Shown: positions 51,201-54,200 of the stretch, in pieces | Layout of the letters: every line of letters begins with the position of its first letter | Numbering within the stretch: the stretch's first letter is position 1 | Origin: Lama guanicoe | Taxonomy: Eukaryota | DNA: 64,000 bases | Reading direction: 5' to 3' | NCBI GenBank assembly: GCA_013239625.1 | Contig: MU053557.1 | Coordinates: 4,742,123 to 4,806,122 of the forward strand | Made by a program: the position numbers and the translations under genes | The notes under the pieces: generated by a model | The model's input: the letters and a program-made list of their open reading frames with translations, nothing else | The model's database searches: none | Told to the model about the DNA's origin: nothing

Positions 51201-54200
51201 GGGATGTAATGTACAACATGATAAATATAATTAACACTGCTGTATGAGAGTTGTTAAGAGAGTACATCCTGAGAGTTCTCATCACAGGGAAAAAAATTTT
51301 TTTTCTATTTCTTTAATTTTGTACCTAGACAAGATAATGGATGTTCCCTAAACTTACTGTGATAATCATTTCATGATGTATGTAGGTCAAATCATCATGC
51401 AATGTACCTTAAACTCATACATGGTTATATGTCAATTATTATCTCAGTTAAACTGGGAGGAAAAAAAAGTCTGAGAAATGTCACAGCCAAGAAGAGCCTA
51501 AGGAGACATGATGACTAAATGTAATGTGGTAGCCTAAGTGGGATTCTGCAACAGAAAAAGGACAATAGGTAAAATCTAAATAAATCTAATAAAGTATGAA
51601 CTTTAGTTAATAAAAAAAAAGTAAAGAAAGGCAAGATGACGATGTTCTATCAGATGGCTTAACAGTACTTTTGAAGTGGCAAAAGAATCAGTAAAGATAG
51701 ATCAGTAGAGGTTATACATTCCGAAGAACAGAGAGAAAAAAAGAATGAAGAAAAATGAACAGAACCTCAGAGAAATATGAGATACCATTAAGTGCACTAA
51801 CATGCATAAAGGGAGTATTAGGAGAGAAGAAAGAGAAAAGAGCATAAAAAATTTTAAAAGAAGTAATGGCTGAAAAGTTGCCAAATTTACTGAAATCATT
51901 AATTTCACAGCAATTTCAATCAAGTTCCAGGAGGATAAAGGCAAAGAGATCCACAAAAGACACATCATGCTCAAAGTGCTAAAGCCAAAGACAAGGAGAA
52001 AATCTTAAAACCAGAAGAGAAAATGAATTCATCACTTACAAAGGATCCCCAATAACATTAACAGCTGACTTCTCAGCAGACACAATGGAGGGCTCCCCCT
52101 AAAATCACCTAGAATATTATTCAGCAATAAAAAGGAAAGAAATACTGATACATAACTACATTTGTGCATTAGTTACCTTACTAACTTGGACATTAAATAT
52201 TCCTTTTTTTTCCTTACTATGGAGGCCCAGATTTTTCTGGAAGGTACTTGGGCAGTTCTGAAACAAACATTTTATCCCTAATACTATGAGGCCCACAGAA
52301 CTTACCGATTAGAAAAAACATAGTTTGCTTCTTTACCACCATTTGAGTGACTCAAGCATTAACGGGTCGGGTGTGAGATAAGCTGCTCTCCGTGGTGCTG
52401 ATACATCAACGAGGCTCAGGGCGGTGGCTCACAAAGGTGAGTTTACTTGCTGTTTCGGTCCCAGAGGCAATTTTCACTCATCTGCAATAAATGAGAAAAA
52501 TAAGAACAGTGCATGAAGTTTTTCATAAAGTTAATTCTATTCAATATAAATGACATTCATTCTGTTTGTGTTCAAGCCAGGATGTTAAAATATTATTTTT
52601 TATAAATACTGGGAATAATAGATGGTAGTTGGTAGTTTTAAGGTCCTAATCTGATACAGTATAATAATGCTGACAATCCTTTGTTGGTCTCTCTACTTTT
52701 TATTTTACCAGTCTACAAAATCCAAAAGTCTGGGTGCCAGCTCCCTTGGGATACCATTGTGTATCTGGGAAGTAGAGGGAGCCATGGGTCCCATTCTCTG
52801 CCCTCCATGTTTTATTTACAATGAGGCTTGAATTGCAGGGTAGTTGTGGCAGGAGCTGACTTTCTGCATAGGTAATAGATGACCATTGCAATCCCCACAG
52901 AGCTGGAGAGACAAGACACCCAATTATTAGCAAACCGTGGGAATTGCTCCACACCCCACTTACAGAGGACTACATGTAGCTGTCTGTAGCATAAAATAAT
53001 AATAATAATAATAAAACTTTCACTGAGAGGTTGTACTCTGGCCTTGCCCAAGCAAGAGCAGTATTGCACAGCATGGACCCTGGAGCTCAAACATGGGCTC
53101 TGCCATCATTAGCAGTGAGACCTAACCTCTCTGTGTCAGTTTCCTCAAGATAAAGTAGAGATATTAATAGTAAGTTTTTGTGAGGATTAAATAGAAATGC
53201 ATATAAATGGCCTAGCATATAGTAAATGGCTGATACATTTTTGCCATAACCATGTGCTGTCACTGTCCACTATAGAATAGAGCCTACAGTAAACTTCTAG
53301 GTTCCTCACTTTCCACTAATCTCTCAGTAATAAAATGGGCAATGCCTAACTTTTGCCCCAAGTCTGAGTTATATGTAGCTGTCTCTTTGTCTTATATATA
53401 ATAGAGTTAACTATAAAAATGCCCTTTTAAAACTAAAGTGTGTGTGCATCAAAAATTTTGTTTTACATTATATCTAGTATCTATCAAGTACTGACTACTT
53501 GCCAAGTACCATACTAGGTAATTTTCATGTCTGTCTCAGTCCTTTTCACAATGCCAAGAGGTAAATTTGACCAATACCCATACTTACAAGCAAGGAAACT
53601 AAAGTGTAGGCGAAGGCACAAAAACACCACATCTGCTTTGCCTGATGTCGAACAACCAGCAAAGGGCAAAAGAAAACAGACGGTCTGGTTGTAAAGCCCT
53701 TGCTCCTCATCCCCATGCTCTGCTGCCTCCCTTTGGCTCCCTGTCTCCTTTCCTTCACACTAAATGTATCTAGGGGTATAGATCTAAATATTGCTGTTTT
53801 ATAGATGGAGAGATTGAGAGAGAAGCTACCACCACCCAATACCTTCACAGGGGTCGGAACTGAGGGCCTTTTCTTGCCTCATCTCTGCAGGTGCCCATCA
53901 GTATAAGTACGGTAAGAACCGAGCTGAGGAGGATGCCAGGAGGTACCTGATAGAAAAAGAGAAGCTGGAGAAAGAGAAAGAGACAATCCGGACAGAGCTG
54001 ATGGCACTGCGACAGGAAAAAAGGGAACTAAAGGAGGCCATTCGGAACAGCCCAGGTAATTATGTGGGTGTGGTCCTGAGCACATGGGGGGGCGGCCCTC
54101 AGCCTTGACACTGCCCTTGCACCAGCCACCTGGTTTCTTACCGGGTACAGGTAGGCTTCTCCCCGCCTTTTCTTCCCCCCACCTCCTCTCTCCCCCTCCT

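What the first reader, a model, noticed from the sequence alone, without database searches (positions are those of the whole stretch)
52340..52445. Consensus REST/RE1 site beside a perfect orphan 5' splice site deep in intron 15
Seen: a full RE1 match (52382-52402, minus strand), AP-1 TGACTCA (52348-52354), GATA AGATAAG (52376-52382), locally elevated CpG in an AT-rich background, and a consensus donor AAG|GTGAGT at 52437 that the 19-exon model does not use. Known: REST represses RE1-bearing promoters outside neurons. Inference: this could be a REST-gated internal promoter or non-coding first exon splicing to exon 16. The first in-frame ATG would be 54001 (after an out-of-frame ATG), giving a coiled-coil-only peptide. 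It could instead be an intronic silencer. The upstream frame has a TAA at 52379, so the exon would not itself be coding.
Basis: partly seen in the sequence, partly recalled or inferred. Interest (0 to 1): 0.7.

Follow-up and report, generated by a model that had tools for sequence, protein, structure and literature searches.

The report
Lineage-specific REST site in AFAP1L1 intron
An intron of a camelid gene for an actin-linked adaptor protein (AFAP1L1) carries a strong binding motif for the neuronal-gene repressor REST, which likely acts as an ordinary, lineage-restricted silencer site, while the splice signal beside it is probably a chance match rather than the end of a hidden exon.

Summary
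The gene is camelid AFAP1L1 (19 exons, 764 aa, 7 differences from a Camelus ferus isoform). The RE1 (52382-52402) is the window's only consensus match (0.01 expected). A human GRIK3 site sharing 20 of its 21 letters is bound in 16 of 16 cell types, so REST likely binds it. CpG is enriched (top 0.3% of non-exonic windows), which REST-driven hypomethylation can explain without a promoter. The donor, AP-1 and GATA motifs are common: 4 such donors against 3.4 expected, 2 of them antisense. The donor also sits in a predicted hairpin. Published REST peak tables show no pan-cell peak in human AFAP1L1 and none in mouse ES cells; the one weak K562 peak probably lies in intron 14. None of 105 short homologous proteins starts at Met54001, and primates and pig lack that Met. 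The donor's closeness to the RE1 is somewhat unusual (0.3-3.5%, post hoc), and no reads were laid, so a first exon or poison exon is not excluded. Verdict: a new, probably lineage-restricted member of a well-known class; low interest.

The parts
52382..52402 (-). Canonical RE1/NRSE (two half-sites, 2-bp spacer)
   Evidence: Only exact consensus match in 64 kb, 0.01 expected. Shares positions 2-21 with a human GRIK3-intron RE1 that scores 28.46 and is bound in 16 of 16 cell types.
52306..52457 (.). Small CpG-retaining patch (7 CpG); too short for a CpG island
   Evidence: 6 CpG in 130 bp, GC 53%, o/e 0.68, top 0.3% of non-exonic windows. Over 250 bp, GC 44% and o/e 0.58.
52348..52354 (.). AP-1 heptamer
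   Evidence: Present; 1 of 13 in the window.
52376..52382 (+). GATA motif overlapping the end of the RE1
   Evidence: Present; 1 of 13 AGATAAG in the window.
52419..52424 (+).
   Evidence: It lies too close to the donor to sit upstream of a start site for an exon ending there (inference).
52434..52442 (+). Unused consensus 5' splice site AAG|GTGAGT, forming the 3' arm of a predicted hairpin (52420-52451)
   Evidence: PWM score 9.7 against 0.0-8.2 for 18 annotated donors (leave-one-out). Chance frequency. Hairpin -12.4 kcal/mol; opening cost above 18 of 18 or 15 of 18 annotated donors, by flank size.
52179..52230 (+). Possible 3' splice signal: TACTAAC (52179-52185), pyrimidine run (52200-52215), AG at 52224 or 52230. 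With the donor it would bound a 212- or 206-nt frameshifting pseudoexon.
   Evidence: Acceptor scores 5.4 and 0.3 against 0.9-14.1 for annotated acceptors; a stop follows after 21 or 19 codons.
46700..52165 (+). Stacked LINE-1 fragments filling most of intron 15 (limits by eye); the RE1 lies about 220 bp beyond them
   Evidence: 48237-48509 matches LINE-1 ORF2p structures at E=7e-29. Weak ORF1 trimer-domain hit at 51709-51777, below Pfam cut-off. Self-similar pieces at 68-81%.
44745..44856 (+). AFAP1L1 exon 15
   Evidence: tblastn with P0008 and GT/AG limits.
53891..54055 (+). AFAP1L1 exon 16, with out-of-frame ATG 53933 and in-frame ATG 54001
   Evidence: 100% identical to Camelus ferus P0008; start codons mapped.
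43585..43605 (+). Second, degenerate RE1-like site in intron 14 (one mismatch in the left half)
   Evidence: 4 sites at up to 1 mismatch, 1.15 expected. Possibly the counterpart of the weak human K562 peak (inference from partly recalled coordinates).

Best explanation
The element is a strong canonical RE1 in intron 15 of camelid AFAP1L1 that REST likely binds in non-neuronal cells, likely as a lineage-restricted silencer site, and the donor beside it is probably an unused pseudo-splice site. Shown: the motif, its near-identity to a ubiquitously bound human site, the CpG patch, and the lack of a matching peak in human and mouse tables. Inferred: REST occupancy keeps about 150 bp unmethylated, which would slow CpG decay if it reaches the germ line. 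Inferred: recruited co-repressors would damp AFAP1L1 or a neighbouring gene at a distance, or have little effect. Inferred: the site was gained in the camelid line or lost in human and mouse.
For: One consensus match, 0.01 expected. The 20-of-21 human twin scores 28.46 against a functional threshold of 20.86 and is bound in 16 of 16 cell types. REST peaks, including those in gene bodies, are hypomethylated and gain methylation in REST knockout (PMC4499139 section 21). Introns are the commonest RE1 location (29.4%) and non-conserved RE1s still recruit REST (PMC1557810 passages). Only 15-30% of REST peaks are conserved between human and mouse. Strong intronic RE1s silence distal genes when cut (PMC9903721 section 13). 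Donor at chance frequency: 6 unannotated donors score at least as well, 4 of them antisense. Hairpin over the donor. No short or alternative protein carries the element's frames.
Against: No binding, methylation or expression data exist here for this species. The orthologous DNA of other mammals was not seen, so lineage restriction rests on absent peaks. A strict donor 9-mer within 100-200 nt of a given point has only a 0.3-0.6% chance, and a looser one 1.8-3.5%. Most plain-consensus RE1 matches fall below a PSSM cut-off, including non-binding ERV-type copies; no matrix or repeat library was available to exclude that directly. Afap1l1 is listed as changed in Rest-knockout mouse ES cells, although no peak is assigned to it and a conserved peak lies in neighbouring ABLIM3.
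Confidence: 0.65

Rival explanations
1. REST-gated internal first exon: where REST is low, AP-1, GATA or Sp1 factors would start transcription upstream of 52436, and the RNA would splice to exon 16. The product would be a non-coding meRNA-like transcript, or a 128-aa (ATG 54001) or 169-aa (GTG 52424) C-terminal AFAP1L1 fragment.
For: The donor outscores all 18 annotated donors and lies 35 nt from the RE1, a 0.3-3.5% coincidence depending on definition. CpG patch. GC box. An in-frame GTG at 52424 has a purine at -3 and G at +4. Intragenic enhancers are known to act as alternative promoters that use host splice signals (PMC4054604 passages). One 134-aa ORF from an unnamed 1.2-kb contig (P0121) starts six residues before this Met, but may be a partial transcript.
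Against: No matching REST peak in human (16 cell types) or mouse ES cells. No TATA or CCAAT box upstream, and the GC box is only 12 nt before the donor. Hairpin over the donor. The Met is replaced in 24 of 91 long homologues (2 unmatched), including primates and pig. 0 of 195 proteins start at it, and 0 of 133 with the exon-16 anchor carry the upstream frame. An out-of-frame ATG with A at -3 precedes it.
Confidence: 0.15
2. Poison cassette pseudoexon: a branch point, pyrimidine run and AG at 52179-52230, together with the donor, would define a 206- or 212-nt exon. Its inclusion would shift the frame and stop translation within 19-21 codons, sending the mRNA to nonsense-mediated decay. The RE1 would be a separate DNA-level element inside it.
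For: A perfect TACTAAC (2 on the + strand of the window) lies 40-46 nt before an AG, with a 16-nt pyrimidine run between. Strong donor. All 4 acceptors tried give an in-exon stop.
Against: The acceptors are weak (5.4 and 0.3). 5 of 6 equally strong unannotated donors, 3 of them antisense, also have an acceptor this good within 50-300 nt. Of 127 proteins with the exon-15 end, 115 continue normally and none of the other 12 resembles this frame (decay targets would rarely be annotated as proteins). Hairpin over the donor.
Confidence: 0.08
3. Inert coincidence or repeat relic: the RE1-like word came with an unrecognised transposon fragment or arose by chance, and REST does not occupy it.
For: It lies just past a LINE-1 block. 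RE1s are spread by LINE2, LINE1, Alu and ERV copies, some of them non-binding. No occupancy in human or mouse.
Against: 20 of 21 letters match a site bound in 16 of 16 cell types. The CpG excess is centred on the motif, which methylated relic DNA should lose. No second copy of the element in the window.
Confidence: 0.12

Closest known systems
Canonical intronic RE1/NRSE silencers, e.g. the human GRIK3 intron site chr1:37,486,370-570 (hg19; PMC9903721, PMC4055426) and the DLGAP4 and SLC5A5 intron sites (PMC9903721)
   Same: 21-bp motif, 20 of 21 letters shared with the GRIK3 site; intronic position.
   Different: The host is not a classic neuronal REST target and has no pan-cell peak in human. 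Binding and silencing are untested here.
Species-specific RE1 sites (PMC1557810; PMC4499139)
   Same: A strong motif with no bound counterpart in human or mouse peak tables, near retrotransposon sequence.
   Different: Origin (point mutation, insertion, or loss elsewhere) is unknown; the motif is not inside the LINE-1 block as judged by eye.
REST-dependent low-methylated regions (as described in PMC4499139 section 21; original work recalled)
   Same: A short CpG-retaining patch centred on an RE1, below CpG-island size.
   Different: Methylation was not measured; germ-line protection is inferred.
meRNAs from intragenic enhancers (PMC4054604 passages; original 2012 paper recalled)
   Same: An intronic motif cluster with GATA and a donor that could splice to the next host exon.
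   Different: No enhancer chromatin, start site or junction is shown. Known meRNAs were described in erythroid cells, not as REST-gated.

Membership tests
Canonical RE1/NRSE site | Two half-sites with 2-bp spacer in a 21-bp motif | tested here: met
   Exact match to the recalled 17-letter consensus.
Canonical RE1/NRSE site | Matrix score above the functional threshold (FIMO about 20.9) | tested here: inconclusive
   No matrix on hand. A human site differing only at position 1 scores 28.46, so the threshold is probably passed.
Canonical RE1/NRSE site | REST occupancy in the species' own cells | not testable with these tools
   No camelid ChIP data reachable.
Conserved RE1 site | REST peak at the human and mouse orthologue | tested here: not met
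   Human: one weak K562-only row for AFAP1L1 across 16 cell types, 8.6 kb upstream of a coding position. None among 8,199 human or 4,107 mouse ES-cell peaks. No oligo at chr5:148.67-148.71 Mb in the MPRA table. Exon placement partly recalled.
Canonical RE1/NRSE site | Not a non-binding ERV-type RE1-like copy | not testable with these tools
   No repeat library available; class described in PMC1557810.
Alternative first exon / internal promoter (incl. meRNA) | Strong 5' splice site upstream of a host acceptor | tested here: met
   Score 9.7, but at chance frequency and in a predicted hairpin.
Alternative first exon / internal promoter (incl. meRNA) | Spliced reads joining 52436 to 53891 | not tested
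Alternative first exon / internal promoter (incl. meRNA) | Capped 5' ends and promoter or enhancer chromatin | not testable with these tools
   No CAGE or chromatin data reachable.
Alternative first exon / internal promoter (incl. meRNA) | CpG island or core-promoter elements upstream of the donor | tested here: not met
   Patch about 150 bp; over 250 bp GC 44% and o/e 0.58. No TATA or CCAAT upstream; one Inr-like word at 52227.
Coding short isoform | Conserved start codon and an annotated product | tested here: not met
   Met in 65 of 91 long homologues, absent in primates and pig; 0 of 195 proteins start there.
Poison (NMD) cassette exon | Usable 3' and 5' splice sites | tested here: inconclusive
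   Perfect branch point, weak acceptors; the anatomy is common among controls.
Poison (NMD) cassette exon | Premature stop on inclusion | tested here: met
   4 of 4 acceptors tried give an in-exon stop.
Poison (NMD) cassette exon | Inclusion reads, increased by NMD block | not tested

The most novel reading that the evidence does not exclude
A lineage-specific, REST-gated internal promoter that, in neurons or neuroendocrine cells of camelids, makes a 128-169-aa C-terminal AFAP1L1 fragment. The fragment would keep the coiled coil and actin-binding end but lack both PH domains, and could act as a dominant-negative actin adaptor. It would be a neural isoform born from one new RE1 and one chance donor.
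Probability: 0.07. Interest if true: 0.55.

Novelty: new member of a known kind. Interest (0 to 1): 0.15.

Why it matters
As an RE1 it matters little: mammalian genomes hold over a thousand strong sites, about 30% of them intronic, and most bound sites differ between species. It is one more example of RE1 turnover, here in a lineage without ChIP data. It would matter more if the donor were used under REST control, because that would show a new tissue-restricted exon or isoform arising from a single motif gain. One junction query in camelid RNA-seq would settle that.

Tried and rejected
No whole genome is held for this window. Sequencing-run search on 52200-52500: 9 RNA or RNA-guessed runs from 4 studies held 0.26-0.33 of 27 words and 2 more held 0.07; 4 runs of unlabelled kind (one study, another organism label) held 1.00. 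No reads were laid. A simulation shows 7-9 of 27 words are expected from a relative 3-4% diverged that holds the whole stretch (P 0.23-0.27), from a 206-nt exon in such a relative (0.19-0.27), or from a 120-nt piece in the same species (0.46). I therefore treat the result as no evidence either way. Metagenome scan for exon-16 relatives: 3 loci at 49-68% identity, too distant to be mammalian orthologues, with no RE1 (0 of 3) and no match to the element. Rfam on 52170-52800: 2 matches far below gathering score. Repeats in 52100-52800: only short chance pairs. Folding of 52340-52470 as a whole is not unusual (z 0.62). Earlier scan findings: none on this element. Paper searches on AFAP1L1 with REST, NRSF/RE1, isoform, internal-promoter and domain terms listed no paper on an RE1 or internal promoter in AFAP1L1; the library covers only CC-licensed PMC and bioRxiv, and only the top rows were seen. 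PMC4371837's supplement does not name Afap1l1, so the direction of its change in Rest knockout is unknown. The MPRA sequence file was cut when stored and its results table was too large to read, so absence there rests on Table S8 alone; that library also excludes loci within 5 kb upstream of a TSS. Rejected: a coding cassette exon (stops with all 4 acceptors tried); a CpG island (too short); an RE1 inside the LINE-1 block (about 220 bp outside it, by eye). The donor and acceptor matrices used an exon-10 end at 40011; P0008 fits 39990, which was used for lengths.

Full report
Locus. The window holds one gene on the + strand, AFAP1L1. Exon 16 is 100% identical to a Camelus ferus isoform (P0008). 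The 19-exon model gives 764 aa and differs from P0008 at 7 of 733 aligned residues, against 41 of 763 for goat, so the source is a camelid. Intron 15 runs 44857-53890. Most of it is a stack of LINE-1 fragments: an ORF at 48237-48509 matches LINE-1 ORF2p structures at E=7e-29, and self-similar pieces recur at 68-81%. The block ends near 52165 by eye. The finding lies about 220 bp beyond it and 1.5 kb before exon 16.

Observation. Every motif is at the stated place. The RE1 is the only exact match to a recalled 17-letter consensus, with 0.01 expected. The CpG patch (6 CpG in 130 bp, o/e 0.68) is reached by 0.3% of 5570 non-exonic windows but is too short for an island. The other motifs are common. 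The donor 9-mer occurs 4 times against 3.44 expected, twice antisense. AP-1 and AGATAAG occur 13 times each. With a matrix from the gene's own 18 donors, 6 unannotated sites score at least as well as this one, 4 of them on the antisense strand.

How strong is the RE1? No matrix was on hand, so I looked for a human twin. An RE1 in a GRIK3 intron shares positions 2-21. It scores 28.46 against a functional change-point of 20.86 (PMC9903721 section 10), and is called in 16 of 16 cell types. REST therefore likely binds the camelid site. One caution: most plain-consensus matches fall below a PSSM cut-off, including non-binding ERV copies (PMC1557810 section 12), and no repeat library was available.

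Is it conserved? I could not see orthologous DNA, so I used published peak tables. In the 16-cell-type human table (PMC4055426 Table S2; file cut when stored, but the chr5 rows lie in the held part), AFAP1L1 has one row: a weak K562-only peak at chr5:148,700,672. Neighbouring ABLIM3 has 22 rows, including a near pan-cell peak. A coding AFAP1L1 variant lies at 148,709,327 (PMC10819409, one passage), in exon 16 by my recall. The K562 peak is then 8.6 kb upstream, not 1.5 kb, and fits better a second, one-mismatch RE1-like site at 43585 in intron 14. That placement is inference. No peak is assigned to the gene among 8,199 human or 4,107 mouse ES-cell peaks (PMC4499139 Table S2; its file 1 was not searched). 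The MPRA score table has no oligo in the interval, though that library skips loci just upstream of a TSS. Against a simple reading: Afap1l1 is listed among genes changed in Rest-knockout mouse ES cells, direction unseen. A human-mouse conserved peak in ABLIM3, about 17 kb upstream of AFAP1L1 by recalled coordinates, could account for it. Only 15-30% of REST peaks are shared between human and mouse, so a lineage-restricted site is ordinary.

The CpG patch needs no promoter. REST peaks, also in gene bodies, are hypomethylated and gain methylation when REST is removed (PMC4499139 section 21). That this reaches the germ line and preserves CpG here is inference; a listing on REST motifs in hypomethylated sperm regions (PMC7857438, start of abstract only) is compatible.

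First-exon reading. For it: the donor outscores all 18 annotated ones and lies 35 nt from the RE1. The chance of that within 100-200 nt is 0.3-0.6% for the strict 9-mer and 1.8-3.5% for a looser word, chosen after the fact. There is a GC box and an in-frame GTG at 52424 in a good context. Intragenic enhancers can act as alternative promoters (PMC4054604 passages). Against it: no TATA or CCAAT box upstream, and the GC box is only 12 nt before the donor. The donor is the 3' arm of a -12.4 kcal/mol hairpin whose opening cost exceeds that of 18 of 18 (40-nt flanks) or 15 of 18 (70-nt flanks) annotated donors. Met54001 is present in 65 of 91 long homologues and replaced in primates and pig. Among 105 short homologues none starts there; 0 of 195 stored proteins do, and 0 of 133 with the exon-16 anchor carry the upstream frame. 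One unnamed 134-aa ORF starts six residues earlier and may be a partial contig. The hypothetical peptide would be 128 aa, covering the later coiled coil and the C-terminal end; AFAP1L1 keeps the AFAP-110 actin-binding domain (PMC4939424 passages). The known AFAP1L1 promoter is the Sp3-driven 5' one (PMC3541374 passages).

A perfect branch-point word at 52179, a pyrimidine run, and AGs at 52224 and 52230 would bound a 212- or 206-nt exon ending at the donor, with a stop after 21 or 19 codons. The acceptors are weak, and 5 of 6 equally strong orphan donors show the same anatomy. Of 127 proteins with the exon-15 end, 115 continue into exon 16 and none of the other 12 resembles this frame.

RNA. 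No reads were laid, so both junctions are untested. The run search is set out under Tried and rejected and counts for nothing either way.

Verdict. Most likely (0.65) a REST-bound, lineage-restricted intronic RE1 with an incidental donor; first exon 0.15, inert relic 0.12, poison exon 0.08. It works like a canonical intronic RE1 silencer (PMC9903721 section 13) and meets the motif definition; occupancy and function in this species are untested. It fails the test for a conserved RE1 and for a conserved coding short isoform. Papers: none was read whole; what was seen is stated at each citation. PMC4371837 was seen as passages and one supplement search. The consensus motifs and human/mouse exon coordinates marked as recalled come from no call.

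Noticed in passing
window 43585-43605 (+): A second RE1-like site, one mismatch in the left half, 370 bp after exon 14. It may correspond to the weak human K562 REST peak in AFAP1L1.
   Followed up: partly
window 47051-47059 (+): Another unused perfect donor (CAG|GTGAGT) inside the LINE-1 block, with a strong acceptor 85 nt upstream (46968) in the first matrix scan: a pseudoexon-like pair.
   Followed up: no
window 46700-52165: An old LINE-1 ORF1 region appears split near 47930 by about 3.5 kb of younger LINE-1 pieces and resumes near 51615 (read by eye).
   Followed up: partly
proteins P0196, P0197, P0231: Annotated AFAP1L1 isoforms of horse, pygmy sperm whale and a sea turtle skip exon 16 (165 nt, in frame), removing the start of the coiled coil.
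   Followed up: no
outside the window, upstream of position 1 (ABLIM3): A REST peak conserved between human (hg19 chr5:148,634,3xx) and mouse (mm10 chr18:61,803,5xx) lies in ABLIM3 next to the AFAP1L1 5' end; a better candidate for REST control of this gene.
   Followed up: partly
window 31231-31360 and 26151-26280: Two other non-exonic CpG clusters as dense as the one at the RE1 (7 and 6 CpG in 130 bp).
   Followed up: no
window 39909-40011: Exon 10 has two in-frame possible ends (39990 and 40011); P0008 fits 39990. P0008 also skips exon 9.
   Followed up: no
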